This document shows, piece by piece, positions 1,211 to 52,000 of a stretch of 64,000 bases of DNA. Position numbers and translations under genes: made by a program. Source of the DNA: Hemiscyllium ocellatum (Eukaryota); the NCBI RefSeq assembly GCF_020745735.1, contig NC_083409.1:20232341-20296340 (forward strand), in the 5' to 3' direction. Position 1 is the first letter of the stretch. Each line of letters begins with the position of its first letter. The notes beneath the pieces were generated by a model, which worked only from the letters and a program-made list of their open reading frames with translations, was not told the origin of the DNA and searched no databases.

Positions 1211-1450
1211 GTAAAAACAAGGACTGCAGATGTTGGAAACCAGATTCTAGATTAGACTGGTACTGGAAAAGCACAGCAGTTCAGGCAGCATCTGAGGAGC
1301 AGGAAAATCGCCATTTCGGGCAAAAGCCCTTCATCAGGAATAGAGCTTTATTCTTGATGAAGGGCTTTTGCCTGAAACGTTGATTTTACTGCTCCTCTGA
1401 TGCTGCCTGAACTGCTGTGCTTTTCCAGCACCACTCTAATCTAGAATGTG
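1211..1450. mobile_element. Palindromic Penelope-derived mini-element with two degenerate hammerhead cores
   Basis: Arms CTGGAAAAGCACAGCAGTTCAGGCAGCATC...TTCGGGCAAAAGCCCTTCATCAGGAAT and ...TGATGAAGGGCTTTTGCCTGAAACG...GCTGTGCTTTTCCAG are reverse complements. Flanked by TG(T/C)CTCTCTGAG at 1199-1210 and 1451-1462. Confidence 0.85.
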
Positions 1451-1518
1451 TGCCTCTCTGAGTGCGAGTGTTTAACTTAATGCTGCTTGGAGGGGTCTCT
1501 CTCAGTGTGGATTTGTTA

Positions 1519-1667
1519 CTCAGAGAGACACCTACAGGCAGCGTTCAGTGACGCACCCACATTCGGAGACACCTATCTACAGCATGGAGTGTGATCATGT
1601 TCCTCAGTGCAACCTGTCTCACAGAGTGAGTGTGTTACTCTGTGCTGCCTGTAGGTGTCTCTCTGAG
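1519..1667. repeat. Perfect 24-bp inverted repeat with 101-bp spacer (MITE-like)
   Basis: CTCAGAGAGACACCTACAGGCAGC (1519-1542) is the exact reverse complement of GCTGCCTGTAGGTGTCTCTCTGAG (1644-1667). Confidence 0.85.
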
Positions 1668-1798
1668 GTATGTGTCTGAGCGATGGATTGAGAATGGGCT
1701 TTGTGCTGGGGATTGAAGATTAGGCTTTAATCTTCTCAAATCATGAATGGAAAACAGTTCTGCTGATTCAGTCTGAGATGGCAGCTCATTCAGATGGC

Positions 1799-1928
1799 CG
1801 AAGTTAAAACATCCAACAACTCCAGGTGATAGTCAAACAGGTTTATTTGAAAGTAGAAGCGTTCAGAGCACTGCTTCTTCATCAGGTAGCTGGAGGGGCA
1901 GGATCATTGGACACAGAATTTATAGTAA
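1799..1928 (-). mobile_element. Short Penelope-type terminal fragment with a degenerate hammerhead core
   Basis: Minus strand reads CCTGATGAAGAAGCAGTGCTCTGAACGC. 11-bp TSD ATTCAGATGGC at 1788-1798 and 1929-1939. Confidence 0.65.
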
Positions 1929-2019
1929 ATTCAGATGGCAGCTGAGAAAGGTGAATACTGAGAGTGTATTCTCAGTAAGGGAGGGATTTCAGAGGCAGTG
2001 GGCACTGTGCTCCCTAATG

Positions 2020-2092
2020 CAGAAATGTCGATTTTCCTGCTCCTCAGATGCTGCCTGACCTGCTGTGCTTTTCCAGCACTACTCTAATCTAG
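2020..2092 (+). mobile_element. 73-bp Penelope pseudo-LTR fragment
   Basis: GAAATGTCGATTTTCCTGCTCCTCAGATGCTGCCTGACCTGCTGTGCTTTTCCAGC, flanked by a perfect 16-bp TSD ACTGTGCTCCCTAATG (2004-2019, 2093-2108). Confidence 0.85.
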
Positions 2093-2787
2093 ACTGTGCT
2101 CCCTAATGTGTTGCCCAATTACAAGAGGACTTTCTGAATCCAGGGTCAATCGTGGCTGCCTGCCCAGCCAATGCTGGCTCTCCATAGTCATATTTCAGTG
2201 GTTAATTAACCCAAACAAGGTGCAGCAATATTACCTTCCAGGGAGGGGAGCTGTCTGAGGGAGGGAGGGTGAATTCTTGCAGCCCCAAGAGAAGTTGTGG
2301 TGGATTAATGACAGGTATGACCACCATGAAGGTGCCACCTTCTTTCCCCCTGCCCCAGCTGTGATGACCCTCAGGTTAAAAGTGTGACTGCTCTGGGATG
2401 ATGACCACATTCCTGGGTGATGGAGGGAAGGCCAACCTCTCCCAAAGGCAGCACAGGCTGGATCGAAGGTGAAACAAGAGTAAGCATGGGGAGATTGAGG
2501 GTGACAGAAGGAGGGGGTTGGTTGGCAGTTTGTTATTCAGAGTCAGGTTCCAGAGTATCAGTCCTTCTGACATGCACCTTTTCATCTGTCAGCCAGGGCT
2601 CCCTGATTGGACAAAGTTAACTGTCTCTGTCAGGGAACTCATATTTTATCAAAAAGAATAAACATTTATTGAACAAGGAGCTCAAGAGCTAAATGACACT
2701 AGACAAAATAATGGTTTGAAAGGTTTCATTATGGACACCGCAAATGAGATTTTCACTCAATGGATGGTGGGAATCTGGAATAGACTG

Positions 2788-3090
2788 TCATAAAATCCCT
2801 ACAGTTAGGAAACAGGCCATTTGGCCCAACGTGTCCACACTGACCCTTGGAAGAATAACCTACCCAAGACCCAATCCCCTATCTTATTACTCTGCTTTTG
2901 CCCTGACTAATGAGCCTAACCTACACATCCCTGATCACCATGGGCAACTTAGCATGGCCAATTCACCTAACCTGCACATCTTTAGATTGTGGGAGGAAAC
3001 CAGAGCATCCAGAGAAAGCCTACACAAACACTTGGAGAATGTGCAAACTCCACACAGACAGTTGCCTGAGGCTGGAATTGAACCTGGGTC
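2788..3090 (-). mobile_element. HE1-like tRNA-derived SINE
   Basis: Reverse complement of the HE1 body (TTAGCATGGCCAATTCACCT, GAGGAAACCAGAGCA, GGAAACAGGCCATTTGGCCC). Confidence 0.85.
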
Positions 3091-3094
3091 AAAA

Positions 3095-5580
3095 CACCCA
3101 AACTGGCCTTGACTTCGCTACAACCTCTGCCTCCACTTCTGGCCCCTCCCACTCTGCAACCAAGACTGATACTACATTTTCCAGAGTCCCCTTGAGTCCA
3201 ACTGCCCACCTGCAGCCAGCCAGCACACTCGCTCTCCCTCCTCACCCATACACCCTCCCAGTGCACCCTATCCCTCCACTTCTCCATCTTCACCCCATCT
3301 CCACCTTCCCGCTCCCACACCTCACTCCACAACCCACCTCCGCCCCAATCTCCTTTCTCTCCCACACCCATTCTCTCCCATTCCCATCACCCTTGCCCCC
3401 TCCCCTCCTTCAGCCATCTCCGACCCACCTGAAAACCTCGTCCCCCACCCCAAGCCTTGCCCCTGAAAATACTATCCCCCCACGACCTCGAACTCTCTGA
3501 GGCCAAAAGGTCCATCCTGAGAAAAGGGCTCACATTCATTCCCCACCTCAAAAAATCCCGCACCCACCAGGACGTGGAGCTCTTCTTCCACCGCCTCTAC
3601 CTCCATGTCTTCTTCTTTAACAAAAACTCCCAAACTCCCTCTGAGGACCCCTTCTCCCACCTCCAACCTTCCTCCTCCACTTGGTCACCCCCCCCACCCC
3701 CCACCACCAGCTGTGTACACCCAATTTCTTCATTGCTGACCACTGATGCGATATCAGCCGCCTCAATTTCCATCCATCCAGTCCCCCTCCACCAATGCCC
3801 TCCTCCATCTGGCCGAACTGGTCCTCACCCTCAACAACTTTTCCTTTAACTCCTCCCAGTTCCTCTAAATCCAGGGGTGGCTATGAGTACCTGGATGGGC
3901 CCCAGCTCCCCCTGCCCCTTTATTGGCTATGCTGAACAGTCCCTCTTCAGTGCCTACACAAGCACTGTGCCCCAGCTCTGCTACCATTACATGGATGACT
4001 GCGTTGGTGCAGTGACCTGCACCCAGGCTGAACTGGAGCAGTTCATCGTCTTCGCCTACAACTTCCACCCTACCCTCAAATTCACTTGGTCCACCTCGGA
4101 CACCTCCCTCCCCTTTACTGACCTCTCCATTCCCATCTCCAGTGACAGTATTTAGATAGACATTTACTGCAAACTCACAGACTCCATTATTACCCGGACT
4201 ATACTTTCTCCCACCCAGTATCCTGCAAGAACTCCATCCCATTCTTCCAATTCCTCCGCCTCAGCTCTATCTGCTCGTATGAGGAGACATTCCACTCCCA
4301 AGTATTCCAGATGTCCACCTATTTCGAACAACATGCTTTTGCTCCCTCTGTCATCCATCGCACCACCTCCATTTCCCGTTCCATTGCTCTAAACCCACCC
4401 CCCTCCAAACAGAATAAAGACAGAGTGCCCATTGTCCTCACCTATCACCCAAACCGATCTCTGTATCCAACACATCATCCTATTCCGCCAAGCCGAACAA
4501 GACCCCATCACCAAGAATGTCTTCCTCACCCTACCCCTGTCTGCCTTCCACAAGGACTGTTCCCTTTGACAATTCTTGGTTTGCACCACTCTCTCCACCA
4601 TCTCTCCTAATCCCCAGGTACCTTCCCCTGCAAACGGAAAGGATGCAAAGCCTGCTGGTACACCAACCCCTCCCCTCCATCCAGGGCCCAAAACAGTCCT
4701 TCCAGGTGAGACAGAGGTTCACCTGCCTCTCCTCCAACCTAGTTTACTGCATCAGGTGCCCGCGATGTGGTCTTCTCTACATCGGCAAGACCAAACATAA
4801 ACTTAGGCAGCGGTTGTTCGTGCATCTCAGCTGGGCCTGTAGGGGCCGACCAGACTTCCCAGTCACCACCATTTTAATTCCCCTTTCCACTCCCTTTCCT
4901 CCGGGTTCAATTCCCTCCTCAGGCGACTGACTGTGGGGAGTTTACACATTCTCTCCGTGTCTGCGTGGGTTTCCTCCGGGTGCTCCGATTTCTTCCCACA
5001 TTCCAAAAATGTGCAGGTTCGGTGAATTGGCCATGCTAAATTGCCCATAGTGTTAGGTGAAGGGGTAAATGTAGGGGAATGGGTCTGGGTGGGTTGCGCT
5101 TCGGCGGATCAGTGTGGACTTGTTGGGCTGAAGGGCCTGTTTCCATTCTGTAAGTAATCTAATCTAATCTAATCAACATGACCATCTTAGGCCTCCTCCA
5201 TTGCCACAATGAACCAAACCGCAAATTGGAGGAACAACATCTCATCTTCCGCCTGGGCAGCCTACAGCCCAGAGGATTCAACACTGAGTTCTCCAATTTC
5301 AAATACCCTCCCTTCTCATCCCCTGACTCCCTCCACAGTCCCTCCCATCTCTTCCACTCCTCTCTGCCACCAAACAGATTCATTCCTTCCATTGACGAAC
5401 CAGGTCATGTCCTTTGCCTGTCTTCATCTATCCCCATTCTCCACCCTGCTCCCGCCACCCCCTTTATCTGCAGCTTCGCCTACACCCACCGTCATTCCTG
5501 AAGAAGGGTTACACCCAAAACATCAACTTCTTCACCGCCTGATGCTGCCTGGCTTGCTGTGTTCCTCCAACCTCCTGCCT
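3095..5580 (+). mobile_element. Degenerate Penelope-like retroelement (RT + GIY-YIG endonuclease) ending in a pseudo-LTR
   Basis: RT motifs LVLTLNNFSFN, AMSTWMGP, YHYMDD, FHPTLKFT. GIY-YIG LVYCIRCPRCGLLYIGKTK...RKLEEQHLIFRLGSLQPRGFN. Hammerhead-like CCTGAAGAAGGG at ~5497. Frameshifts and stops are present. Confidence 0.9.
4900..5172 (+). mobile_element. HE1-like SINE nested in the Penelope GIY-YIG region
   Basis: CCGGGTTCAATTCC...GGTGAATTGGCCATGCTAAATTGCCC...GAAGGGCCTGTTTCC with a (TAATC)n tail. It splits the endonuclease reading frame. Confidence 0.9.
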
Positions 5581-5739
5581 GTCATTGAATGGAACCAGCA
5601 GGAAAGGGCTGGACAATCAAGTGTCAGGGCCATCAACAAATAGGAATGGGACACACTACAGATAGATGCATTGAGACAGTCAATCACAAAGAGAACACCA
5701 AACTGGAAATGAAACACTCATACACAGTGGGCGGAAATT

Positions 5740-6050
5740 AATATCAGAAAGTGTGAGACCATGCACTTTGCTCGGAATAATCGAAAGGCCGACTATTATT
5801 TAAATAGTGAGAGATTCCAACAAAGTGCAGTACAGAGTGATCGGTGTAGTATTGTGCATGAAACACTGAAAGTTAGTGCAGGTGCAGCAAGGAATTGAGA
5901 AGGTAAATGGAATTTTCACCTTTATTGCCTGGGGTTGGAATCTGAAAGTAGAGAAATCTTGTTAAAACTTTATAGGGTGTTAGTGAGCCTGGATTTGAAG
6001 TATTGTGTGCAATTTTGGTCCCTGTATTTAAGAAAGGATGGACAGTCATT
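5740..6050 (+). mobile_element. CR1 LINE ORF2 3' fragment
   Basis: Peptide ILLKLYRVLVSLDLKYCVQFWSLYLRKD matches the CR1 C-terminal motif. Confidence 0.8.
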
Positions 6051-8370: not shown

Positions 8371-8476
8371 TCAGTACCCTACTTCTAAAGCTGCACTGTC
8401 TCTCTATGGGTCTCTACAGATTGAGCCTGTTAGCTCCAAGCAGAGTCCCACTTTACTGATCAGGGACAGTGAAGCA

Positions 8477-8492
8477 GCTGCCCTCTAGTGGC
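8477..8492 (-). promoter_or_regulatory. Candidate CTCF binding site
   Basis: GCTGCCCTCTAGTGGC; the reverse complement GCCACTAGAGGGCAGC closely matches the CTCF core CCAC/GYAGRKGGCRS. Motif match only. Confidence 0.55.
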
Positions 8493-9334: not shown

Positions 9335-9477
9335 TTGTGTGGGTTTCCTCTGGGTGCTCCGGTTTCCTCCCACAGCCCAAAGATGTGCGGGTCAGGTGAA
9401 TTGGCCATGCTAAATTGCCCGTAGTGTTAGGTAAGGGGTAAATGTAGGGGTATGGGTGGGTTGCACTTCGGGTGGAA
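9335..9477 (+). mobile_element. HE1-like SINE internal fragment in the C2 3' flank
   Basis: GGGTTTCCTCTGGGTGCTCCGGTTTCCTCCCACAG...GGTGAATTGGCCATGCTAAATTGCCC. Confidence 0.85.
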
Positions 9478-12634: not shown

Positions 12635-12637
<3 letters not shown>

Positions 12638-17072: not shown

Positions 17073-17896
17073 CAAAGTTTGGGAGAAGATTTGTAGCTCG
17101 GGTGCTCGTTGTTGTGGTTCTGTTTGCTGAGCTGGGATTTTGTGTTGCAGACGTTTCGTCCCCTATCGCGGTGTCATCCTCAGTGCTTGGAAGCCTCCTG
17201 TGAAGCGCTTCTGTGATGTTTCCTCCAGCATTTATTGTGGTTTGAATCTGCTGCTTCCGGTTGTCAGTTCCAGCTGTCCGTTGCAGTGGTCGGTATATTG
17301 CATCCAGGTCGATGAGCTTATGGGTTGAATCTGTGGATGAGTGCCATGCCTCAAGGAATTCCCTGGCTGTTCTCTGTTTGGCTTGTCCTATAATAGTAGT
17401 GTTGTCCCAGTCGAAATCATGTTGCTTGTCATCTGCGTGTGTGGCTCCTAAGGATAGCTGGTCCTACTACATAGGACAAACAGGAAGACAGCTAACGATC
17501 CGCATCCATGAACACCAATTAGCCACGAAACGACACGACCAGCTATCCTTAGTAGCCGCACACGCAGATGACAAGCAACATGAATTCGACTGGGACAACA
17601 CTACTATTATAGGACAAGCCAAACAGAGAACAGCCAGGGAATTCCTAGAGGCATGGCACTCATCCACAGATTCAATCAATAAGCACATCGACCTGGACCC
17701 AATATACCGACAACCGCAGTGGACAGCTGGAACTGACAACCGGAAGCGGCAGATTCAAACTACTACAAATGTCAGAGGAAACATCACAGAAGTGCTTCAC
17801 AGGAGGCTCCCAAGCACTGAGGATGTCACCTAGACAGGGACGAAACGTCTGCAACACAAATTCCCAGAACAGAATCGGCGAACAGAAGCACAAGAT
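17073..17896. mobile_element. Penelope-like element (second family): GIY-YIG 3' half with an inverted terminal copy
   Basis: From 17462 the + strand reads YYIGQTGRQLTIRIHEH...FDWDNTTIIGQAKQRTAREFLEAWHS. 17087-17460 is the reverse complement of the right part. 12-bp TSD CCTCTTGATATT at 17061-17072 and 17897-17908. Confidence 0.9.
17814..17852 (+). ncRNA. Minimal type I hammerhead ribozyme motif
   Basis: GCA-CUGAGGA-U-GUC(A)CCU-AGAC-AGG-GAC-GAAA-CGUC/UGC: conserved core, paired stem II, palindromic ACGU stem III and a 3-bp stem I. Predicted cleavage after C17849. A variant copy lies on the minus strand at 17147-17186. Confidence 0.7.
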
Positions 17897-18495: not shown

Positions 18496-19899
18496 CTGAA
18501 AATGTGTTGCTGGAAAAGCGCAGCAGGTCAGGCAGCATTCAAGGAGCAGGAGAATCGCTGTTTCGGGCAAGAGCCCTCCTTCGGGAATGAGGAAAGTGTG
18601 TCCAGCAGGCTAAGATAAAACGTAAGGAGGAGGGACTTGGGGGAGGGGCGTTTGGAAAAGCGATAGGTGGAAAGAGGTTAAGGTGAGGGTGGTAGGCCAG
18701 AGTAGGGGTGAGGGCGGAGAGGTCAGGAAGAAGATTGCAGGATAGGAAGGCGGTGCTGAGTTCGAGGGTTGAGACTGAGACAAGGTGGGGGGAGGGGAAA
18801 TGAGGAAACTGGAGAAGGAGGCCATCTGGATTGTATGGTATTCCTTCTTCAAAGACCGCAATTTCCTGCCAGACGTGATCGACGATGTTCTCCACCGCAT
18901 GTCCTCCACTTCCCGCTCCTCCGCCCTTGAGCCCCGCCCCTCCAATCACACAGGGCAGAACCCCACTGGTCCTCACCTACCACCCCACCAACTTCCATAT
19001 ACATCGTATCATCCGTTGTCACTTCCGCCACCTCCAAATGGACCCCACTACTAGGGATACATTTCCCTCCCCTCCTCTCCCCTATCAGTATTCCAAAAAG
19101 ACCACTCCCTCCGTGACTCCCTCGTCAGGTCCACACCCCCCACCAACCCAAACTCCACTCCCGGCACCTTCCCCTCCAATCACAAGAAATGCAAAACTTG
19201 CGCCCACATCTCCCCCTTACTTCCCTCCAAGGCCCCAAGGGATCCTTCCATATCCTCCACAAATTCACCTGCACCTCCACACACATCATTTACTGTATCC
19301 GCTGCACCTGATATGGCCTCCTCTATATTGGGGAGACAGGCCACCTACTTGCGGAACGTTTCAGAGAACACCTCTGGGACACCCAGACCAACCAACCCAA
19401 CCACCCCGTGGCTCAACACTTCAACTCCCCCTCCCACTCCACCAAGAGCATGTAGGTCCTTGGACTCCTCCATCGCCAGACCATAGCAACACGACGGCTG
19501 GAGGAAGAGTACCTCATCCTCTGCCTAGGAACCCTCCAACCACAAGGGATGAACTCAGATTTCTCCAGTTTCCTCATTTCTCAGACCCAACCCTCGAACT
19601 CAGCACCACCTTCCTAACCTGCAATCTTCTTCCTGACCTCTCTGTCCCCACCCCCACCCTCGCCTATCACCCTCACCTTAACCTCCTTCCACCTATCGCG
19701 TTTCCAATGCCCCTTCCCCAAGTCCCTCCTCCCTACCTTTTATCTTAGCCTGCTTGGCACACTTTCCTCATTCCTGAAGAAGGGCTTATGCCCGAAATGT
19801 CGATTTTCCTGCTCTGTGGATGCTGCCTGACCTGCTGCGCTTTTCCAGCAACACATTTTCAGCTCGGATCTCCAGCATCTGCAGTCCTCACTTTCTCCT
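18496..19899 (+). mobile_element. 5'-truncated Penelope element with inverted 5' pseudo-LTR
   Basis: GIY-YIG IYCIRCT*YGLLYIGETG...LEEEYLILCLGTLQPQGMN. 18496-18780 is an inverted copy of the 3' end. TSD CCAGGTGCCA(A/G)GG at 18483-18495 and 19900-19912. Confidence 0.9.
19770..19805 (+). ncRNA. Hammerhead ribozyme motif in the Penelope pseudo-LTR (CpG-decayed stem III)
   Basis: AUUC-CUGAAGA-A-GGGC-UUAU-GCCC-GAAA-UGUC/GAUU. Confidence 0.6.
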
Positions 19900-21514: not shown

Positions 21515-21736
21515 CGCAAAAGTGAGGAGTGCAGATGCTGGAAACCAGTGTTTAGATCAGAGTGGTACTGGAAAAGCACAGCAGGTCAGGCAGCATCCGA
21601 GGAGCAGGAAAATCGATGTTTCGGGCAAAAGCCCTTCATCAGGAATAGATGAAGGGCTTTTGCCCGAAACGGCGACTTTCCTTGCTCCTAAATGCTGCCT
21701 GACCTGCTGTGCCTTTCCAGGACCACTCTGATCTAA
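21515..21736. mobile_element. Palindromic Penelope-derived mini-element inside CR1
   Basis: Inverted arms centred on CCCTTCATCAGGAATAGATGAAGGG. 15-bp TSD ACTAGGGTAGGAATA at 21500-21514 and 21737-21751. Confidence 0.9.
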
Positions 21737-29612: not shown

Positions 29613-31152
29613 TGTTAAAGTACAGTTTTGAGATGGCCCAAGGAATCCCTTGTGGCCTCAGACCTGTAAGCCTCTCTTGATTTGTCCCGGTGATCGTACT
29701 CTGAGTCTGGAATAGCCTGGAATAAAAACATCTTACGGACAGTTTAGTTTAATTTTAGTCTTCCCCTTTATTTACCAATAACATCACTGTTACAACATAA
29801 CACTGGGACTTATTAGCCAGACTAACTAAGATTCTAAAATCTTAGGAGAGTAGCGACCAGCTCTGCCTTGAAGAGCCCTAGCAGGTAACTCTCCTGTCAC
29901 AAACAGGTTTCCTTCATACAAAATTTTACAAAAACATTGCATTTGATTAGATTTAAGCACTTGGCGAGACAAGTCCTTACTATAAGGAGGTACCAGTCGA
30001 AACTAAGTGGGAGAAGTCGTAAGTTAACCTTGCATGTCAAGTATCGTTTTTTACAAAATGGCTTCTTAGCGAGGAGGGCAAACTTTGACCATTTAAAAAA
30101 TGGCTTCCTCATAGATTGTGTCAGAATCTCTTCTATATTGGGTGAGAATAATTTTTAAACTATGAGCAGACTCTTGCTTTTTATCTTAAGCAAACAATCA
30201 TTCTGAACCTGAGGCTGAATTGTTACTGCAAAGTTGTATTTAAAATGATTCATTTGTCTTGAATTAGACATTTTTTTTCTTTTCAGGGTTGTGGTTCAAA
30301 TTCAAAGAGGACATAGATCTGACTCGTTAGAATTGATAGTGGGGCAGTCATGGTCTGTAAGAACAGCAAGTAAGTTAAAAGCTTCGTCAGCATTACTTTT
30401 TACAGAATTTGCATTTCATAATCAGCGATTGTTACTCAAAATAATCATAAAGTCCCAAAATGCAATTAAGTTCAAAACAAGGGTTATGGAGATAACACCG
30501 GAACAGGATAATGGATTGTACATAATCAGCCATGGCCATAATAAATGATGGTGCTAGCTTGAAGGGCCGAATGGCCTACTCCTGCACCTGTTTTCTATAT
30601 TGAATCCACAACAAGTAATCGTGCATTCAAACCAAACCACAGTTAATTTTCTATTGGTTTTGGCAATCTCAGCGTTAAAATGTTGTTCTCTCACTCTAGT
30701 GTCTTTTTGAACACCCAGGTAAGGGACTGTATCAGAATAATGTTTTTCCCTTTCTGTCTGCCGAGCCTGCATGGGTAATAAGAATCCAGTATAATTAATA
30801 CGACCTGACCATTAATTACAAGGCTTTTGACATGCTTGCAGGATGATACCAAGTCAGAGATCAGAATTAAACACTGTCATTAATTTCACAAGTGAACACC
30901 CATGAATGTTATCACTCTGTGTCCTGTTTACACAGATTCATTGCTGTTAAGGCAATTGTTCTTAATTGCCTTGGAGCATCCTGTTACCACTTGGTGAGAA
31001 CAGATGTTTTTATCTTCTGCACATCCTGGTTTCCCCCTTTTGCGGCCTGGCGCGTCCCTGGCTGTCCTATTTATTTTCTACTGTGCAACAAATGTGTTCT
31101 ATAATTCAACATTACATTTAGTCAAAATGTTTTAAGGCTATAAACTTTCTCA
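29613..31152 (-). mobile_element. ERV 3' LTR (1.54 kb)
   Basis: TG...CA ends (TGTTAAAG...CTTTCTCA). Both ends align to 35179-35920. Polypurine tract AAAGGAGGGAA abuts it at 31153-31163 on the minus strand. Confidence 0.85.
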
Positions 31153-31442
31153 TTCCCTCCTTTAGTCATTTCATGACAACTACATAAGTTATACAAGTAT
31201 AATTAGTTCATTCAGTCTATTTGTATTCTCAATAATTTGAGTGCTTCCTCTTGCGAGTCATTGTCTGGAGGATCAGAGCGGAAAGATACTGGATTTCACT
31301 GGAGACGTTCAGACGTGGAGCTACGAGGTAGGCAAGGGTCGATTAACAAGATTCCTCTTTGGCTTAGGCGAAAAGCAATGTACGGTCCATTCCATGCATA
31401 AGTGGATGACACTGAATATTCCTAGGATGAGACCGGGGCCTA

Positions 31443-31826
31443 TCAGTACGTTCCACACAGCGACCAAAGCCAGCAAGTAATACTCCATCCATATGGATCG
31501 GATGATGGTGCGGCAGGTGTCTTCCCTGCATCTTGACCAGTTTTGTTGATAACATCTAAGTTGTCCAAAATGTCTTTAGAGAAATCATTGATGTAGATGC
31601 AACATTGTTGGCCAATAACAGAACAAGCACCTCCTTCTTCAGCAAGGAGGAAACGTAGCATGAGCCAATTCTGAAGTGTTACCATCCAGGTCTCCTGTAC
31701 CTCTTTGTTCACCAGCTTCAAAGCGTGGGCAGTTGAGTTGGCAAGTGTATCGATGTCATGCACAAGGTCAGTTATCTGATCTCGGGCCTTCTCAACATCC
31801 CAGCCCGGAGTAAGGCCTCCCAGCAA
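31443..31826 (-). pseudogene. ERV env transmembrane subunit remnant
   Basis: LQNWLMLRFLLAEEGGACSVIGQQCC is a CKS-17-like immunosuppressive domain plus CX6CC, preceded by a heptad region. The upstream SU is disrupted. Confidence 0.9.
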
Positions 31827-32570
31827 TTTGCATCACCAGGTTTGTTGATGGAAGAAGTTGTCTAAATCCTGTGTGTATTTCCTCTACGTTTTGTTCCATT
31901 ATGCTTCACATGTTGGTAGGCGTTCATTCATCACCTACCTCAGATACTTCATGGTGGAGGGTAAAAAGTGGTAAATTTTGTGCTAGGGCACAACATTGGT
32001 ACCAGTCATTGGGTAGATATGGGTGGCCTTTGTTTTCACATTGTCAATGAAGGCTAAAAGGAGTTCCAAAGGCACACTTCTGTGCGTGAATGATGAGTCC
32101 ACTCAGGGCGAGAGCTGAATCTTGTAAATAGTGGGTGCTCTCAAACATTTGGATGTCCAAGTGTATTAACGGATGAAGAGCAGGAGTATGAAAAGTGTCT
32201 TTGATAACATTCTTACACAGTGCTGGCTTCACTTTCCCCATGTCTTGGGTACCGGATGTTCTTTCAACGCACCATTCTAACTGCAAAACAACGTCAAAGT
32301 TGAATCCTTGACGTTTGTTAGTGCACTTCACATAGAGACGCACCTTCTACCGAATGCGTTTTGCCATCATAAATGAGGGGTTGCATAAGTGGGTGAATCC
32401 TATTTGTACACTGTACATCAGAATGATGGAAGAGTGAGCAAATAACACATGGATCGGGGGTTTAGCTTGAGTAAAGAAACCATTGGTAACAGAAGGGAGA
32501 TTGGGAGTGCATAGCATCTTTCCAGCTCGTTGTCATAATTACAGTAACTATTGAATACAGGAACTGTATA

Positions 32571-33265
32571 TAGAGGAACCTCGATTACCCTCGATTATGA
32601 GATGGGCAGGCACTATTTCATTCGGATAATTGATTATTCGGTTAATTGATTTCCTCTGGGTCTGTGAAGTCTGATCCCCGATCAGGAGACTCAGCAAAAG
32701 CACATTGCCCGCGAGAACCTGCCCACCCTAACCCCAAACCTATCGTCCGTCTGATCCTACCCCGCCCCTCGACCGGTCCCAACCCTACTCCCCGAACCCT
32801 GCACCCCCATCCATCCCCACCTACCGTCCGAAGCCCTGACCCCACCCCACCCCCCTGCTGTCGGGCAGCCGAATGTACACCAACAGTACGACTGCTGCTG
32901 CCTTTGTAGGATTAGTCTCCAATTAGCGCACACAACATTTTGACAGGTTCTGCCTCTGTCCTGTACAGGGCAATGTTGGAGCGATAATCTGGGGATGGGG
33001 TGTTTGGGATTCACCCCTGTTTAGAACTCCAGGGAGAGTGTTGTGGGAGAGAGAGAGGGCAGGAGGTCAGTCATTTGGAGATGGTGCCTGGACTGGTCAG
33101 GACTGTCCTCGGCAGCATTTCAGTGAGCTGAGCATGCTTTTAATCATTGTACCTGTAAACAGAAGACGTGATCAGGATTGAAATCGCTCTTTGATGTAAT
33201 GTTTCTATCGGGACCTTAAGATCACCTTCGGATAATCCGATATTCGGATAATTGAGGAACCTGTG
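32571..33265. mobile_element. Tigger/pogo-like MITE inserted in env
   Basis: Imperfect TIRs TAGAGGAACCTCGATTA / TAATTGAGGAACCTGTG, TA on both sides, repeated TTCGGATAAT subterminal motifs, no transposase. Confidence 0.7.
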
Positions 33266-33799
33266 TAAAGGTATTTCTGTCAGTGGTGGTAGGTCGAATA
33301 GGTGAAGGTGCCATCGAGAAGGCATAGGTTGTCTGTCACGGGAGTAGATGCCTGAGGATTTTGTGATTTTGGTACTATGTGCTCAATACTGCAATCTGTA
33401 CGGTTTGTTTTGAGAGGGGAACAGACAAACATTTCAAAGTAACAGTTTTCGGTTGACAGAATTGTGCCATCTCATGATGTCTGGCAAGTGTTGCGAGGAT
33501 GACAATAAGGTCGAGAGTGATGTTTGGATACAAAATGTGAGCAGTTTAACTGAGTTTCAGCTGGGCAGCTGCATTCATAACTTCCAATGGTATGAGTACA
33601 GGTTTCATTTGTACAGTTACATTGGAGTTTTAGCCAGTCTGAGATATCTCAGATTGGTCGGTTATATCTGGACGTATGTACTTGGGTTGGGTTTTCATTG
33701 GATGCCTGTATCAGTACTAACACAGGACTGTGAGGGGGATACAAGCTTGCAATGTCCTTTGTCGACCCAAGTTGAACATTCTTCTACCTTTACTGCAGT

Positions 33800-34720
33800 T
33801 TCAGTTGTCAGAAAATCATGATAAGGATCTTTCCAGCGAGGGCCCAATCTTTGATGATTAAAGTCCTTCAATCGTACGTAGTCACCAGGGTTGATGTTTT
33901 TAAACTTTGGAGTTAGCTCCTCTTCCTTCCCTGGTACTCGATGGGCTGCTTTGACTTGTTCTTAAAAATGTGTTGCTTCAGGAAATGGCCTGAAGAAGGG
34001 CTTATGCCCGAAACGTTGATTGTCCTGTTCCTTTGATGCTGCCTGACCTGCTGCGCTTTTCCAGCAAAACATTTTTAAGCTCTGATCTCCAGCCCTCACT
34101 TTCTCCTGCTTTGACCTGTTGATGATACGACTGCAATGCTTTGGTCAGCTTAATCTGGTACGTGTGCATTTCTTCTGCCGTGACATGCACATCAACAGGG
34201 TGTTGGAGAGTTAATGGTGCAGATCAGAGAGTCCTCATGGGCTTTCCATATATCAGTTCAGTCGCCGAGAATCCCGTCTTTTTCTATGTCATGGTTTTCT
34301 CATATTAAAAAGGGCATTTGGGAATACTTGAAGCCAATTACGACCAGTTTCTTCCACCAACTTGCTGAGCTGACCTTTTAAATTACAATTGACTTTTTCT
34401 ACAATTCCCACTGCTGGGAGATCGTTGGCACAATGGAATTTTTGACTCATATTCAAACTCTTACATAGTGCCTTGTTTAGCTCCGCACAGAAATGGGAGC
34501 CATTATCAGAAGAAACCGTTACGGGGATTCCAAATCTGGGCATGATTTCCTTTAACAGAATTTTACAGGTAGTTGTTGCTGTGCAGTCAGTACAGGGATA
34601 AACTCCAATCCATTTATTAAATACATTGATTATCACTCAGCAATACTTATAACAATGGCATCTCGGTGACACCCTAAACACTCACTGGATGCACTAGGCA
34701 AGGGAAGTGAATGGACTAAT
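33800..34720 (-). pseudogene. ERV integrase core and C-terminus
   Basis: YKYC*VIINVFNKWIGVYP...PRFGIPVTVSSDNGSHF...GIVEKVN...W...ALFNMR...TGFSATELIYGKPM. Confidence 0.9.
33961..34105 (+). mobile_element. Penelope mini-element with a hammerhead core inside the ERV integrase
   Basis: CUGAAGA-A-GGGC-UUAU-GCCC-GAAA-CGUU at 33990-34017. TSD CTGCTTTGAC(T/C)TGTT at 33946-33960 and 34106-34120. Confidence 0.85.
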
Positions 34721-35157
34721 TCCCCTTTTAATACAATTTTGTCTCCATGATGATTGAATTTCCATTTTTCCCGAGCTACCTTTTACCATGCTGATATGGC
34801 TTCTTTCTGCTTACTACCGTTTCTTTTTTCCCAAATTTGTTGCTCAGTTTTAATACGCACCCATATTTATGTGACTTAGTTTAAATCTTCACATAACTAT
34901 TGATCTACAGGGGCTCCAACTCCACAAAACACAGGGGCTTCTAATCCCACAAGATTCTGTTTTTAGTACCTATTTAAACAATCTCATTTAGGGTTCCGTC
35001 CGGGTACGGTGAGAATGAAATGGGGGAAGCAGCACACAAAGAAACAGACTGAGAGCAATCGAGGTATAATCTTACCTTGTGGACCCATTGGTCTCGAGAA
35101 CGACCCTTCGGTGAAGCTCCTGTTTTCGAGTTTCATTCAAACTTATCCCTTGTTGGA

Positions 35158-35175
35158 ACCCTGCTCGCAGCGCCA
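35158..35175 (-). promoter_or_regulatory. ERV primer binding site, tRNA-Ser type
   Basis: Minus strand TGGCGCTGCGAGCAGGGT, 3 nt after the 5' LTR CA. It is complementary to the vertebrate tRNA-Ser 3' end ACCCTGCTCGC(T/A)GCGCCA as recalled, with one mismatch to Ser-UGA. Confidence 0.75.
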
Positions 35176-35178
35176 AAT

Positions 35179-35920
35179 TGATAAACTACAGGTTTGAGAT
35201 GACCCAGGGAATCCCTTGTGAACTCAACCTGTAAGCCTCTCTTGGCTCATCCCGGAGATAGTATTTTTGGTAGTCTGGAATTAAAATATTCCTGATGAAA
35301 GGCATTTGCCCGAAACATCGATTTTACTGCTCTTCGGATGCTGCCTGAACTGCTGTGCTTTTCCAGCACCACTAATCCAGAGTCTGGAATTTTAAAAAAT
35401 ACTTCTTCCAGACAGTATAGTTTAATTTTAATCACTCCCTTTATTTACTAATAGCATAACTGTTAGAACACAACATTGATACCAATAACCCAGGAGAATA
35501 GGATATCACTCTTCCTTCAAGAGCCCTGGCAGGTTACTCTGTTGTACTATCACAGACAGGCGACCTTTATACAAAAGTTTACAAAGGCTTTCTTTGTACA
35601 AAAAGTTAACAAAGGCACTGCATGTTCTGAATGACATAGATAACAGTGAAGGACAATAATTCGGGAGAGACATTAATTGATACTGAGTTTCGTTTCGAGG
35701 TCAGAATCAAACACTGTTATTAACTTCATAAAGGAGAAGCCATGAATGTTATCACTCGGTGGCCTTTTTAAAAGATTCAGTGATGTTCAGGAAAATGTTC
35801 TTAATTGCCTTACCCTCCTGCCTCTCTATTTTCAGGCGAACACCAAATGTGTCCTGTAATTCAACATTACATTTTAGTGGAAATGTTTAAGGACAAGTTT
35901 TAAGGCTATAGACTTCCTCA
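35179..35920 (-). mobile_element. ERV 5' LTR (~640 bp excluding the nested insert)
   Basis: TGATAAAC...CTTCCTCA; adjacent to the PBS; ends homologous to the 3' LTR. Confidence 0.85.
35283..35380 (+). mobile_element. 98-bp Penelope mini-element in the 5' LTR
   Basis: ATTCCTGATGAAAGGCATTTGCCCGAAACATCG... with 11-bp TSD AGTCTGGAATT at 35272-35282 and 35381-35391. Confidence 0.85.
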
Positions 35921-36585
35921 ACCTAAATTTAAGAGAGCTTGCCCAAGTCTGATGAGGAGGAACGATTGGCAAACTTGAGTAAAGACCAGACTGAAGAAAA
36001 CATTAACGGACTGATCTTTTCATGGAGAAGGCAGTACTGGAGATAGAAACCCAAAACAATCCTGATGTGTTTGTGTGTTCTTCCAGTGCACAAAGGAAGG
36101 GGTTTTCACTAAATATTCGCACGAACTCTTCAACTCCTCTGGATTCACTCAACAGGAAAAGGACCAACTCAAGGCTCAGTTTAAAGTACCATTCCTCGAG
36201 CCTGAAGCTGAGGAAATCCATGAGGAGCACGTGGGCGTTAAAGGAGAGGAACCCAAGAACAATCATGAGGATAGTGAAGACTTTAAAGGAGATGATCTGA
36301 AGAGCAGTGATTCAAAGGCCAATTCTTTGGTTGATGTGATATTATCTTGCTTTGTCAAGGACGCCATTTGAACAATTGCAAGAAATCACAAAGTTTCAAG
36401 TTGAGAAGATCCAGCTTACTAATCAAGGATTACAGTACAAATTGGATATTGAATCCTGGTCCAGGTCATCTTCCAAGGATCTAGAGGAGGAACACAAGAC
36501 TGATAACCAGTTGGAGACATCCAGAAGAGATGATAGTGATGATGATAAGGAGGAAATATTATCTCCAGATCTTTGCTCTCGACCT
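35921..36585 (+). pseudogene. CEP350: CEP350-like pseudogene, 3' part of the large exon downstream of CAP-Gly
   Basis: QQEKDQLKAQF...ANSLVDVILSCFVKDAI/EQLQEITKFQVEKIQLTNQ...DDDKEEILSPDLCSRP parallels recalled human TREKNQLEAQL...LLTDSLLKVFVKDTVNQLQQIKKTRDEKIQLSNQ...EDEKEEISSPDMCPRP. One frameshift near 36365; donor CCT|GTAAGT. Confidence 0.85.
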
Positions 36586-37964
36586 GTAAGTATGAATTTT
36601 GAACCCGTTTTGGGGTAGATTTTAACTTTAAGAATTGTGCAAGTGTTATCTGTCTTAAAGCATTGATGCAATTATGTTATTAATAATTGCAGAGCTTATA
36701 AAATTCCCACATTTTTACGTACTTATAAGATTGTCATTATTCCCCGGAAAGTATTGCAAAATACAACTCCACTTTTTTCAGGCTCATTTTGCAGGTCATC
36801 ATTTTCAGAAATTACCCTGAGTCTTCCCCTTTACCAAAAGACTGTTGTGAGGAATATCTTGATAAATTGTTAGATATATTTGTAGGTGATAAAATCAAGC
36901 TCTGGGGAATATTCTTGAAATGTCTAGTATCTGTGTTTTCTACCTTGCCCATCAATTCTCAAAATATGTATAAGTACGCCCGATTATTTCTCAAGGATTT
37001 AGTGACCATTTCTACTGTGTAATTACTGAGTTTAGAACTGAAAGATTGCTATTGAAATTCAAACCTCTTGCACTTTTCTGTCCTTTCCTCAAAGGGAGGC
37101 AGTGCTTTTAAAGAGGGTTTTTTTAACCTAAATTTTGAATCATGCTTTTCAATTTCTGGCGAATTCAGTGTACACACAGTTTATCCAGAGTAGTGTTCTG
37201 AAGCAAAGTCCCGAGCCTGAATGAACATCTTATGAGAAGAACAGAAGGGTTTATGGTTTGCACATATTAACATTGATTGGACAAGTAGCTGTTTTCATGA
37301 AAGTGCTTGACAAGTTCTCATACTGCCCATTCTTTTCTGAGCATTCAATGTAGGAAATCACTGAAATAGGAGCTTGGGTCAGTTTGATTTGACTCAGCAA
37401 CATCCTGACTAAACCGACATTTGTTTTTCTGATTTGTCAATATTTGCGTTTACCCATAAAGTGCAGGAATAAAAAAGGGGTGCAGCAGTCGACTGAAAGT
37501 GACCTGAAGTTGGAAAGTTGAAGCTCAGAACATTCAGCCTGAAATCATTCATTCCCCTAAATACATGACAGTTGGTAGATGAAGAAATTCTCCATACTTC
37601 TACGTGGAACCAGGAAAGATTTGAACAGCCTGTATCAATTTCCAAAAATGTGGTTAATCGTAACTCGCCATATTTCTTGCGGTTGAACAGTTTGAAGGAT
37701 ATTCGCTGGTTTCATCATGATGTATCTGACCCTAAACTGTTCAAAAGCTATATTCTTCTCATCCTCCACACTCCATGATATCAGCGGTGGGATCTCTCCC
37801 TTTGTGAGCCGAATGAAATACTGATTACTACTAATGGATAAGTGTGACATAAGTTTATTTTTAAAGCTCAGTAAGATGACTTGTGATACTTTGCAACTTT
37901 GTAAAGATGATTCTTTCGCCACCTTGATTAGGACAAAAAATTTTAAAAATTAAAACGGAGTATA

Positions 37965-47300: not shown

Positions 47301-48600
47301 TAGAGGTTTATAAAATCATGAGGGGCACGGATAGGGTGAATCACGAAGATTTTTTTCCTAGGGCAGGGGAGTTGTAAACTAGAGGGCATGGGTTTAAGCT
47401 GAGAGGGGAAGATTTAAAAAGGGCCTGAGGGGTAACTTTCTCAGGCAGAGGGTACTGCATACATGGAATGAGTTGCCAGAGTGGTGGAAGGGGGTTCAAT
47501 TACATCTTTCTTTTAACTTTTAAAAGGCACCGGGATGGGTACATGAATAGGCAGGGTGGAGAAGGATATGGGCTAAATTCTGGCAAACTGGAACTAGGTC
47601 ACATTGGGATATCTGGTTGGTGCAGATGAGTTGGGTCTGTTGTATAACTGACTCTATGACCCCATGCGTTTTGACCCCCATGCTCAATCAACCTTTTGAG
47701 ATAAAATATTTCATGGCCAGAACTATCTAGAGTTTAATGTCTTTTTTTTAAACAGTGCATTTCTACTGAAGTTGATCTGTTTATTTTGTATATGAAAAAG
47801 AAAGAGAATGGATCACTATTTTTAAAGAGGGAATGATGGCTGATGGTTGCATTTGACATAAAACCTGTATACTTTCTGCTGCAGAGTATTATATGCTCAT
47901 CTATAATATATGCTCATATAATAGTTCAGTTGGTGAGCTTTTGAGGGGGCCTGTAGAAAACTCCCAACAAAATGACTGCTTTCCTGTTTTTCATTTCGAC
48001 CCATACCTGACCCTGGCACCCGGGAGGCAACATGTTCTTCAGGAGTCTCACTCACGACCGCAGAATCTCCTGTCTGCTCCTCTAACCATTGACCCTCCGA
48101 TCAACATCACTCTCCAATTCTCTCCTCTTTCCTTCTGAGTCACAGAGCCAGGCTCTGTGTCAGAGACCTGGCCGCTGTGGCTTTCCCCTGATACGTTGAC
48201 CCCCAACAATATCCAAAGCAGTAAACTTATTATTGAAGGGAAAGGCCACAGAGGATTCCTACACTGTCTGCCTATTCCATTTCCCTCTCCTGACAGTCAC
48301 CCAGCCACCTTTATCCTTTATCTTAGGTGTAACTACCTCCCTATAATTCCTCTCTATCACCCCCTCAGCCTGCCAAATGATCCAACGTTCATCCAACCCC
48401 AGCTTCAGTTCCCTCACCTTCTGAGAGGAACTGGAGTCCAAAACATGTTAAAAGACATTTGAACAGGTACATGGAGAGGAAAGGTTTAGAGGGATATAGA
48501 ACAAAAATAGGCAGGTGGTTCTGATTTAGTTGAGAAAACCAGGTTGGCATGACGAATTTGGCCAAAGGGCAAGTTTCTATTCTGTGTGACTCAATGACTC
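44380..48600. mobile_element. Mosaic of nested CR1/L2-group LINE fragments on both strands
   Basis: Minus: KLDTSQDKAAHLIG, FFMQRVVCLWNELPEEV and a CR1 ORF1 piece at 47930-48450. Plus: CR1 3' ends at 45055-45150, 46920-47660 and 48450-48600. Confidence 0.8.
45905..46215 (+). mobile_element. Full-length HE1-like SINE
   Basis: GGGCGGCACGGTGGCACAGTGGTTAGC (A box) ... GGTTCAATTCC (B box), HE1 body, CR1-like tail GGGCCGAAGGGCCTGTTTCC. Confidence 0.92.
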
Positions 48601-49029
48601 TATGATTATGTAAACAATGACCTCCTTCCCATTGGATCCTTCAATAGATAGCAGTAAACATTGGCCTCCTTCCCTGTGGACCCTCCAATAGAAACCTGTG
48701 CACATGGGCTTCCTTCCCACTGCACCCTCCAGTACCTAAGCTTCAAACCCCACGTCGTCTCCATCATGTAGGTCTCTTATTTCCATCTCCACAACATTGT
48801 CCAGCTCTGTGGTACCTCAGCTCCTTGAACACAGAGACCCTTATTCCTGCTTGTCCCACCTCCAAACTCCATGCTTCCAGCTTCCTCCAATGACTCTCCA
48901 TAAATCCCAACTTGTTTGAAATGGAATGGTTCTGTCCATGTTGATTATCAAGATGGAGATAGACACATTTTATATCTGTAATGATTTGAATGGTTATGGA
49001 AAGCGAGAGTGGTCAGAATTGGTTAACAT

Positions 49030-52000
49030 GATGATGGCTTCTGCAGTTGAATGCTGAAAATGTGTTGCTGGAAAAGCGCAGCAGGTCAGGCAGCATCCAA
49101 GGAACAGGAAATTCGACGTTTCGGGCATAAGCCCTTCATCAGGCTTATGCCCGAAACGTCGACATTCCCGTTCCTTGGATGCTGCCTGACCTGCTGCGCT
49201 TTTCCAGCAACACATTTTCAGCTCTGATCTCCAGCATCTGCAGACCTCACTTTCTCCTTGTCCTGCTGACAGCCTGCAGCTTTCTCCACACAGCATGGGG
49301 AAGTGAGGGGGTAGGATGTATTTTTGGGGTCCATAGAACTATCCCACAGCAGGAAGTGTCTCTCAGGAGGGGAGAGGGTCCTGAGCTCCATTTCCCAGCC
49401 CAGGCAGTTTGTCTCCCAGTGAATGAATGTGATGCCAATTTGGAGCCCAGGTTAGGGGCAGTCTCTGCTGTGGATCCAGGTCCAAAAGAGGCAATTGGAA
49501 ATTAAGCTGGAAAGGAAAGATTTGCTGGGTTATAGGGAGAGAGAGGGACAGTGGGACTAATTGGGTCACTCACAGGCACGATGAACTGAATGGCCACCTC
49601 CTGTGCTGTCAGATTACAGTGAGTGCAGACAGTTCAGTTTTCTCACGTCTCCGTAGCAAACGTCCAGCTCCTTATTCAGTCTGCTCCTCCCCACCACTGA
49701 TCAAGCCATGTTACCTCCTGTCACACTGAGTGACATTGCAATCAATATCACAAGTGTCAGTGCCAGCAAATAACAGCATCACAGTCTGACACACTGGGAT
49801 GAGCATCACTGCCTGACATCAAAGAATGGAGCTGGAATCCCCTTCCCCCGATGCTCACAAATCCTACAGCATCAAAAATATTCTGGCACTCAACCCCTTC
49901 TGTTAAACACTCACCTTTCCAATTAAAAGGGATTAGATATCTTTAACTAACCTTGTTTCGTTTTTGAAAGACATCACTAATGTGGGAGATAAGGGAATCT
50001 TGATGGATGTTGCTCATATGAACTTCCAGAAAACATTTGAGAACATTACAATTAGGAATGATAACATTATTTTGGGAACAAATAGATAGCAGAATTAATA
50101 AATACAGAGTCATAGAGACAGACCCTTTGGTCCAACCTGTCCATACCGACCAGATATCCCAACCCAATCTAGTCCCACCTGCAAGCACCTGGCCCATATG
50201 CTTCCAAACCATTCATCCAGATGCCTTTTAAATGTTGCGATTGTACTAGCCTTTACCACTGCCTCTGGCAGCTCATTCCATACATGTACCACTTTCTGCT
50301 TGTAAAGGTTGCCCTTAGGTCCCTTTATACCTTTCTCCTCTCACCCTAAACCTATGCCTCTAGCTCTGGACTCCTCCACCCCAGGGGAAAAAAACTTAGT
50401 CAGTTTATCCAATCCATGCTCGTCATGATTTTATAAACCTCTATAAGTTCACCCCTCGACCTCCGCCGCTCCAGAGAAAACAGCCCCAACATATTCAACC
50501 TCCCTGTAGCTCAAATCCTCTATCCTTGTAAATGTTTTCTGAACCATTTAAAGTTGCACAACATCCTTCTGATAGGAAGGAGACCAGAATTGCACACAGC
50601 ATTCCAAAAATGGCCTAACCAATGTCCTGTGCAGCTGCAACATGATCTCCCAACTCCTGTACTCAATACTCTGACTAATAAAGGAAAGCATACCTAATGC
50701 CTCCTTCACTATTCTATCTAGCCTGCGACTCCACTTTCAAGGAGCTAAACCTGCACTCCAAGGTCTCTTTGTTCAGCAACACTCCCTAAGACCTTACTAT
50801 TAAGTATTCTGGATCTTTGTATAGAAAGGAAGATTCAAATACACTCCAATCATTTTGGGTTCATGAGGTCTAGAATGAGGGAGGAACTTGAGAAAATCAG
50901 TTTTGAGTGAAGTTGTTTTGGGGAAATTATATAAATCCACAGGGAAGAATAATCTACATCCCAGAGTACTTCAGAAGGTGCCAGAAAATTTTGGTGGTCA
51001 TCTTCCAAGATTCTATTGGTTTTGGAACACTTAAAACAGAGTGAAGAGTTACTAACGTAACATCACCATTTAAAAAGAGAGGGAAAGAGATAACTGGGAA
51101 TTTTATATCAGTCAGCCTGACCCTGTTATTGGGCAAAATACGTGAGTCCATGATCAAAGATTCAATAGCTGACTCCATGGAAAACGATGAGAGGATTAGA
51201 CAGTGTCAGCATGGACTGTCAAAAGGGAAATCTTGCATAACAAATCGACTGGAAATGTTTGAGGATGTGATGAATGGATTTGCTAAGGGGGAGCCAGTGG
51301 ATGTAACTTATTTGGACTTTCAAAAGGCTTTTGATAAATCCCACAGAAAAGATTAGCAAATAAAAGTAAGGAACATGGGATTGGAGGCAGTGCACTGACA
51401 TGGATAGGAAACTGGTTGGCAGATAGAAAATAAAGAGTAGGAATAAATGGGCCTTTTTCTGAAAAGGTATCATGACTGAGGTGGTTCTGAGGAGACTACA
51501 GAAACAGGGAGGGTGGAGGACAGAGAGCATGCTTAAGAACAAGGATCAGAGTTTGAATATTGAAGTATTGCTGACCGGAGGTCAATGTCAGTCAGTGAGC
51601 ACAGGGAAAATCGGGGAATGGGACTTGGTGCAACTTCAGATACACTCAGCAGAGTTTGGGATGAGCTGACATTTATGGAGGGGATTGGCTGTGATGTGGG
51701 CCAGGTTAACATTGGAATGATCATGTTTCAAGTTCCAAAGACATGACGAGGTTTTCAGTGGCTTATCTTTGTGATGTGGGCCACAGATCAACCTCAAAGA
51801 TGAGGCCAAAGTTGTAAAGACATGGCTGAGCAGTAGGCATTGCTCAGGGAGAGGGATAGAGTTTGTATCAGGAGCTGAAGAGGATGGGTGTGACCTTCCG
51901 AATATGTTTCCCAGTGAGCCTGGCTCCTCAGTCCTGACTGCTCTTAGCTGCTGTGATTGTCACTGATTGGACACTTCTTATTAGAGATTCTGACCACAGC

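What the first reader, a model, noticed from the sequence alone, without database searches (positions are those of the whole stretch)
1211..49258. Penelope-derived, hammerhead-bearing mini-retroelements that insert with 11-16 bp TSDs
Six tiny non-coding copies (1211-1450, 1799-1928, 2020-2092, 21515-21736, 33961-34105, 35283-35380, 49054-49258 adds a seventh without a clear TSD) are only 73-240 bp. All derive from Penelope termini; all but 1799-1928 share the pseudo-LTR of the copy at 18496-19899. Seen directly: most contain all or part of CUGA(U/A)GA-A-GGGC-NNNN-GCCC-GAAA-CGUC/GA(A/U)U, three are head-to-head palindromes centred on that motif, and six have long TSDs. Established: Penelope-like elements carry minimal type I hammerheads with a palindromic stem III thought to cleave as dimers. 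Inference: the shark genome hosts a SINE/retrozyme-like non-autonomous system in which ribozyme-containing terminal RNAs are mobilised by the Penelope RT/GIY-YIG machinery. The copies have landed in CR1, the ERV integrase and an LTR, so they are among the youngest layers here.
Basis: partly seen in the sequence, partly recalled or inferred. Interest (0 to 1): 0.7.

Follow-up and report, generated by a model that had tools for sequence, protein, structure and literature searches.

The report
Penelope retrotransposon leader run-off stubs
These tiny insertions match the first ~130 bases of full-length Penelope jumping genes and were likely made when the element's enzyme copied only the front end of its own RNA, so they are likely dead-end by-products that record how these elements insert, not a separate ribozyme-driven family.

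Summary
The seven copies are real. Six have 11-16 bp target-site duplications (TSDs); 49054 has at most 2 bp. The SINE/retrozyme reading is not supported. In 1.65 Mb of genome (193 short insertions), 5' ends pile up 1-10 nt upstream of CUGA (100 of 160 arms reaching it; mode -4/-3), at an initiator-like motif 30 nt below a TATA-like box. There is no peak at the cleavage site (+28). Full-length RT + GIY-YIG copies, one with an intact 1128-codon frame, start at the same point, and the stub sequence is their 5' leader. Short and long copies intermix on a tree (35 label changes; shuffled 37.9). 68 of 72 head-to-head pairs carry exactly one tail, with varied junctions. Best reading: reverse transcription starts inside the leader at two sites 36 nt apart and runs off the RNA's 5' end, from one or both nicked target strands. 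The anatomy is published; I found no paper stating the run-off origin in five searches. This scan noted it before on other DNA and elsewhere in this genome. Several copies predate a local duplication, so 'youngest layer' is only partly true.

The parts
1211..1450 (.). Family A head-to-head pair: tailed arm on - (-5 to tail end, numbering from the C of CUGA = 0), tail-less arm on + (-6 to about +90), 5-nt spacer
   Evidence: TSD 1199-1210/1451-1462, 12 bp, 1 mismatch; also in the duplicate
1799..1928 (-). Family B (second Penelope-like family) single arm, -43 to +87, no tail; starts at the TATA-like box; core damaged (GAAC for GAAA)
   Evidence: 11-bp TSD; present in four paralogous segments
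2020..2092 (+). Family A single arm, +17 to about +90; lacks CUGAUGA and stem II
   Evidence: 16-bp exact TSD 2004-2019/2093-2108; empty site in a paralogue
18496..19899 (+). 5'-truncated long copy of the parent element: inverted tail-less arm 18496-18780, then ORF remnant with GIY-YIG, 3' UTR, pLTR and tail
   Evidence: TSD 18483-18495/19900-19912, 13 bp, 1 mismatch
21515..21736 (.). Family A head-to-head pair in a CR1-type LINE: tailed arm on -, tail-less arm on + starting at +2
   Evidence: 15-bp exact TSD 21500-21514/21737-21751; empty site in the paralogue near 42014
33961..34105 (+). Family A tailed arm (-1 to +126, small internal deletion) preceded by a ~16-bp inverted pLTR end; sits in an ERV integrase remnant
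   Evidence: TSD 33946-33960/34106-34120, 15 bp, 1 mismatch; rve and MLVIN_C
35283..35380 (+). Family A single arm, -5 to about +92, no tail; sits in an LTR
   Evidence: 11-bp exact TSD 35272-35282/35381-35391; empty site in the related LTR near 29700
49054..49258 (.). Family A head-to-head pair: tail-less arm on - (to -1), tailed arm on + (from +9); TSD at most 2 bp; younger than the local duplication
   Evidence: empty site in the duplicate; folds into one long hairpin, -157.5 kcal/mol

Best explanation
The stubs are copies of the 5' leader of autonomous Penelope-like elements, likely made by reverse transcription that starts inside the leader and runs off the RNA's capped 5' end. Shown: the stub sequence (-4 to +126, C of CUGA = 0) is the start of full-length RT + GIY-YIG elements, ahead of the ATG at about +162; 3' ends fall at two sites (about +90 and +126); 5' ends hit a wall at -10 to -1; pairs carry one tail; TSDs are mostly 14-16 bp. 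Inferred: (1) the wall is a Pol II start site inside the pLTR; (2) the element's protein nicks both target strands about 15 bp apart; (3) each nick primes synthesis at one of two internal start sites, as the anole element PAc does in vitro; (4) priming in the 3' pLTR gives long copies, priming in the leader can copy only 95-130 nt; (5) two run-off cDNAs joined head to head give the 200-230 bp palindromes; (6) stubs lack the upstream TATA-like box and the RNA downstream of the tail, so they would be dead ends. The hammerhead rides along; uncleaved RNA was the template.
For: 5' wall: 100 of 160 family A arms that reach -1 end in -10..-1 (6.25% per nt), against 0.30% per nt in -55..-11 and 0.33% per nt in +24..+32. 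It persists with subfamily-specific profiles, mode -4/-3, and in TSD-bounded single arms. Initiator-like YYANWYY with its A at -4 and TTTATCT at -35/-37. Family B has two TATA-like boxes (-77, -40) and two end clusters (-45..-38, 8 arms; -14..-2), each about 30 nt downstream. Of 7 copies whose tail runs on into the element body, 2 start at -4/-5 (L224, L226), 2 are partial tandems (-262, beyond -449) and 3 start downstream; L226 has an open 1128-codon frame with RVT_1 (3e-08) and GIY-YIG (5e-04, below cutoff). One tail in 68 of 72 pairs, 36 expected (p=2e-16); mixed long/short pairs 3 vs 11.8 expected (p=0.0014). Arms share 17 rare variants vs control mean 2.6, max 7 of 300. Short and long copies intermix: 35 changes vs 37.9 shuffled, 78 of 500 shuffles as low; nearest-neighbour p=0.35. 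Extra G before the -4 A, as cap copying would leave: 10 of 49 short arms after dropping 2 duplicate rows, 0 of 45 long arms; G:A 10:5, p=0.04 (weak). Contigs of three runs from three other organisms show unrelated loose ends before the same -4 position. PMC11167929: internal RT starts at two sites bounding the tail, both strands cut and extended, ribozyme cleavage not needed.
Against: No RNA 5' end was observed; only contigs were available. TTTATCT is a weak TATA match. A trailing half of the short arms start downstream of the wall (+0 to +46), which needs early termination or trimming. Short arms are slightly closer to other short arms than to long ones (92.1% vs 91.4%, p=2e-4). The tree has 93 columns and few supported forks. 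Shared variants could come from conversion between arms or from fold-back copying. No A-to-G excess marks a sense RNA template here (0 of 17 shared variants; A>G 0.90% vs T>C 0.91%). Only 62 of 193 short insertions have a scored TSD. Internal initiation is shown for PAc, not for this protein.
Confidence: 0.7

Rival explanations
1. A separate non-autonomous family (SINE- or retrozyme-like) of ribozyme-processed RNAs is mobilised in trans by Penelope.
For: Discrete sizes: TSD-bounded lengths group at about 90-140 and 200-230 bp. Very high number. 34 of 90 short arms spanning the motif keep core and ACGU. One three-unit tandem of 81-bp monomers exists. The bioRxiv preprint 10.64898/2026.07.22.740005 derives tandem retrozymes from pLTRs.
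Against: No 5'-end peak at the cleavage site. No stub-specific clade. 58 distinct end pairs in 61 palindromes. No shared non-element upstream sequence among stubs. Core not conserved above control. Palindromes fold into plain hairpins.
Confidence: 0.07
2. Same start site and same products, but the template is a short transcript fired from the 3' pLTR of truncated copies and copied in trans, not the leader of the coding RNA.
For: Every long copy keeps the TATA-like box and initiator in its 3' pLTR; such copies far outnumber full-length ones. PMC2377424 (passages) says the Penelope 3' pLTR can drive downstream transcription.
Against: PAc needs RNA well beyond its RT start site (first 172 nt of the ORF, starts at 111-118; PMC11167929); here that sequence exists only where the tail runs into the body. 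Not tested for this family.
Confidence: 0.1
3. The second arm is made by fold-back (self-priming) copying of the first cDNA rather than by a second target-primed reaction; later deletions at the palindrome centre vary the junctions.
For: Explains shared rare variants and the lack of mixed long/short pairs. Self-priming was proposed in PMC3846280 (passages).
Against: The tail-less arm reaches at least 5 nt further 5' than the tailed arm in 31 of 61 pairs (the reverse in 14), once by about 200 nt, which fold-back forbids unless centres were later deleted. Single arms with TSDs end at either +90 or +126, so both are start sites in their own right.
Confidence: 0.08
4. The wall at -4 is a reverse-transcriptase stall or an RNA processing site (splice acceptor, nuclease cut), not a transcription start.
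For: It coincides with the 5' strand of hammerhead stem I; in Drosophila virilis an intron ends at that place (PMC4209133).
Against: No AG at the wall and no shared exon upstream of stubs. Family B walls track two TATA-like boxes, one far from the ribozyme. Weak cap-G excess.
Confidence: 0.05

Closest known systems
Insertion units of endonuclease-positive Penelope-like elements: inverted pLTR, 30-40 bp tail at one end, TSD, TATA and Inr in the pLTR (PMC3846280 and PMC8557442, passages read)
   Same: Inverted 5' arm, one-sided ~36 bp tail, TSD, promoter-like motifs in the pLTR, pLTR overlapping the start of the next unit.
   Different: Most insertions here are reduced to the leader alone; TSDs are 10-17 bp against 8-10 bp in Adineta; ATG lies beyond the tail rather than inside the pLTR.
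PAc, Poseidon of Anolis carolinensis (PMC11167929, main text read, supplements not seen)
   Same: RT + C-terminal GIY-YIG, hammerhead in the pLTR, two 3' end sites bounding the tail, uncleaved RNA as template.
   Different: PAc's ORF starts at stem II; here the first ATG is at about +162. The text read does not describe run-off stubs or palindromes.
Minimal hammerheads of metazoan PLEs (PMC4209133, abstract, results and discussion read)
   Same: Same motif; that paper already reports thousands of single motifs as probable truncated PLEs and pairs 100-700 bp apart on opposite strands.
   Different: It does not map 5' ends or TSDs.
Non-LTR retrozymes (bioRxiv 10.64898/2026.07.22.740005; introduction, methods start, passages and discussion read)
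   Same: pLTR-derived, type I hammerhead, non-coding, reported in one cartilaginous fish.
   Different: Defined by head-to-tail tandem units with full hammerheads; the copies here are single or head-to-head, and none of the seven is tandem.
L1 twin priming (recalled, no call)
   Same: Inverted 5' segment primed from the second target strand.
   Different: Here both arms copy the same stretch of RNA from two fixed start sites.

Membership tests
Endonuclease-positive Penelope-like element (parent) | Single ORF with RT and C-terminal GIY-YIG | tested here: met
   L226 open frame of 1128 codons; RVT_1 3e-08 above cutoff, GIY-YIG 5e-04 below cutoff
Endonuclease-positive Penelope-like element (parent) | pLTRs from partial tandems, inverted 5' arm, 30-40 bp tail at one end | tested here: met
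   L221, L228 partial tandems; one tail in 68 of 72 pairs
Endonuclease-positive Penelope-like element (parent) | Minimal type I hammerhead motif in the pLTR | tested here: met
   Motif in all subfamily profiles; no Rfam hammerhead model matched at E<=5
Endonuclease-positive Penelope-like element (parent) | Clade (Poseidon vs Neptune) by RT phylogeny | not tested
   No reference set at hand; no PDB sequence match
Non-LTR retrozyme | Two or more head-to-tail units with complete hammerheads | tested here: not met
   0 of 7 window copies; one clear three-unit array in 1.65 Mb
Non-LTR retrozyme | Ends set by self-cleavage | tested here: not met
   No 5'-end peak at +28
Non-LTR retrozyme | Self-cleavage and circular RNA | not testable with these tools
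   Only contigs available
SINE-like non-autonomous family | Own lineage descending from master copies | tested here: not met
   Short and long copies intermix; junctions hardly recur; short tree alignment limits power
SINE-like non-autonomous family | Own promoter inside the copy | tested here: inconclusive
   Most stubs lose the TATA-like box; downstream promoter elements were not tested

The most novel reading that the evidence does not exclude
Penelope-like elements routinely insert by priming both nicked target strands on one uncleaved, capped sense RNA from two fixed internal sites; the roughly half-million stubs in this genome are a fossil map of the elements' transcription starts (two starts in family B) and explain the inverted ends and one-sided tail that define the class.
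Probability: 0.55. Interest if true: 0.6.

Novelty: new member of a known kind. Interest (0 to 1): 0.38.

Why it matters
How Penelope-like elements build inverted ends and one-sided tails is still open: self-priming on antisense RNA was proposed in PMC3846280, internal initiation was shown in vitro in PMC11167929. The stubs link the two observations and give exact predictions (start sites, 36-nt offset, ~15-bp stagger) for an existing assay. They also warn that dispersed minimal hammerheads and 'retrozyme monomers' in such genomes may mostly be dead by-products. Extrapolated number: about 470,000 (193 in 1.647 Mb; blocks chosen by hand, duplicates not fully removed).

Tried and rejected
Rfam scan of the window: no hammerhead family; only sub-threshold miRNA-like hits on the palindromes. 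Cleavage-defined 5' ends: no peak at +28; a mild rise at +30..+46 cannot be told from background and CpG-related end shifts. Alignment artefact for the wall: rejected by subfamily profiles, TSD-bounded ends and full-length copies. RNA evidence: no RNA holder listed on record; contigs cannot show starts or expression. Folding one or two monomers did not give the hammerhead fold as minimum; this says nothing firm on activity, since PAc's ribozyme needs protein. Empty-site alignment for 1211 failed. PDB sequence search empty. Literature searches for a published run-off or twin-priming account found none; subscription papers and the supplements of PMC11167929 and the bioRxiv preprint were not seen and may bear on this.
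Full report
Observation. All seven copies are at the stated places. Six have TSDs of 11-16 bp; empty sites confirm three. The seventh (49054) is absent from a 96%-identical duplicate, which leaves at most 2 bp of duplication. Numbering below sets the C of CUGA at 0; the predicted cut follows GUC at +27, so a cleaved RNA would start at +28. Six copies belong to family A (pLTR of 18496-19899, whose ORF remnant carries a GIY-YIG motif). 1799-1928 belongs to family B, whose longer copies also hit the GIY-YIG region (3 of 15 long copies, best E 5e-15).

Sample. I took the window plus 1.6 Mb from 15 contigs, at places picked without looking at content (1,647,164 non-N bases). Three window seeds found 383 arms; 367 passed an alignment score of 50 (290 A, 77 B). 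I dropped 13 A and 7 B rows as paralogues or duplicates; two duplicates slipped through and were removed by hand for the cap-G count. TSDs scored in 71 of 236 short elements against 0 of 471 controls.

Ends. 3' ends are bimodal: about +90 (pLTR end) and +126 (tail end) in A, about +85 and +119 in B. 5' ends of A hit a wall: 100 of 160 arms that reach -1 end within -10..-1 (6.25% per nt). The rate is 0.30% per nt in -55..-11 (8 of 60), 0.12% in -400..-56 and 0.33% around the cleavage site. Five subfamily profiles give the same picture, mode -4/-3. The wall sits on an initiator-like YYANWYY whose A is at -4, with a conserved TTTATCT at -35/-37. Family B has TATA-like boxes at -77 and -40 and end clusters at -45..-38 (8 arms) and -14..-2. 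A G precedes the -4 A in 10 of 49 short arms and 0 of 45 long ones; G:A is 10:5, p=0.04 against genome composition. This is weak support for cap copying. Contigs from three of four laid runs, of other organisms, have their commonest unrelated loose ends before the same position; these are insertion junctions, not RNA starts.

Parent. Walking 5' through protein searches gave 20 candidate loci; in 7 the tail runs on into the element body, with ATG at about +162. L226 has an open 1128-codon frame with RT and GIY-YIG. L224 and L226 begin at -4/-5, L221 and L228 are partial tandems, and three begin downstream. The stub is thus the 5' leader of the coding unit, duplicated in the 3' pLTR.

Lineage. 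On 139 arms (95 short, 44 long; one per insertion) the short/long label needs 35 changes, shuffled mean 37.9, with 78 of 500 shuffles as low; two short arms are identical to long ones. The alignment has only 93 columns. Short arms are marginally closer to other short arms (92.1% vs 91.4%, p=2e-4), which I cannot fully explain. End pairs are distinct in 58 of 61 palindromes. One clear tandem array was seen. The core of short arms deviates 5.3% against 6.3% at control sites (p=0.28); in long arms 4.5% against 7.2% (p=0.04).

Palindromes. 68 of 72 family A pairs have exactly one tailed arm (36 expected). Both arms are short in 64, long in 5, mixed in 3 (11.8 expected). Arms share 17 rare variants, control mean 2.6, so both likely came from one template, though conversion or fold-back would give the same. 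The tail-less arm reaches further 5' in 31 of 61 and the tailed arm in 14, against simple fold-back; later centre deletions could blur this. No A-to-G excess was found. A transcript through a pair folds into one hairpin, which cannot supply the two same-sense copies a dimeric hammerhead needs.

Mechanism. PMC11167929 shows in vitro that the anole Poseidon protein cuts and extends both strands, starts reverse transcription inside the RNA at two sites bounding the tail, and does not need ribozyme cleavage. Applied here (inference), priming in the leader can copy only 95 or 130 nt before the RNA ends; one priming gives a single arm, two give a 200-230 bp head-to-head pair with one tail. Stubs lose the upstream box and the RNA beyond the tail, so they would not move again.

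Age. Nesting makes the copies younger than their hosts. But 1211, 1799, 2020, 21515 and 18496 are shared with a 94-95% identical duplicate, and 1799 also with two more distant paralogues; only 49054 is shown to postdate the duplication. Median identity to the nearest long copy or subfamily consensus is 91.7% for short arms and 91.5% for long.

What is known. Inverted pLTR, one-sided tail, TSD and TATA/Inr in the pLTR are in PMC3846280 and PMC8557442 (passages). Dispersed and opposite-strand minimal hammerheads as truncated PLEs are in PMC4209133. Tandem retrozymes as pLTR derivatives are in bioRxiv 10.64898/2026.07.22.740005. PMC2377424 and PMC6155905 were seen as passages. Five searches gave no paper stating the run-off origin. 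This scan holds 130 notes with these words in at least 27 genomes, and one in this genome, many with the same reading; I had written mine down before looking, and they are not independent evidence.

Verdict. Real, abundant and regular, but a by-product of a known class of element. The value lies in the testable insertion model.

Noticed in passing
window 1-64000 against the next 200 kb (G000:C9): Most of the window is duplicated in inverted form about 143-202 kb from the window start at 93-98% identity; the first kilobases have further, more distant paralogues. Window 30684-36979 (the ERV stretch) has no counterpart there.
   Followed up: partly
window 3478-5363: A further, more diverged Penelope-like copy with RT and GIY-YIG remnants, 40-56% identical to the L226 protein.
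   Followed up: no
   Followed up: no
window 17112-17893: A 780-bp self-complementary region, 85% arm identity; not examined.
   Followed up: no
G000:C1 block, about 50,061,700-50,062,000: Three head-to-tail 81-bp leader units behind an inverted tail, inside one TSD; the only copy that fits the tandem retrozyme definition.
   Followed up: partly
G000:C14 and C2 blocks (last cluster): A third short family with a hammerhead-like motif and a similar pLTR end.
   Followed up: no
L192/L221, L199 (N-terminal ORF): The parent ORF has a variable-length Pro/Thr/Ala-rich repeat region ahead of the RT, giving a protein of about 1120 aa.
   Followed up: no
G000:C15, about 48-66 Mb: Dozens of near-identical Penelope remnants, suggesting a large repeated unit on that contig.
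   Followed up: no
window 54871-55944: A low-complexity tandem region with several periods.
   Followed up: no
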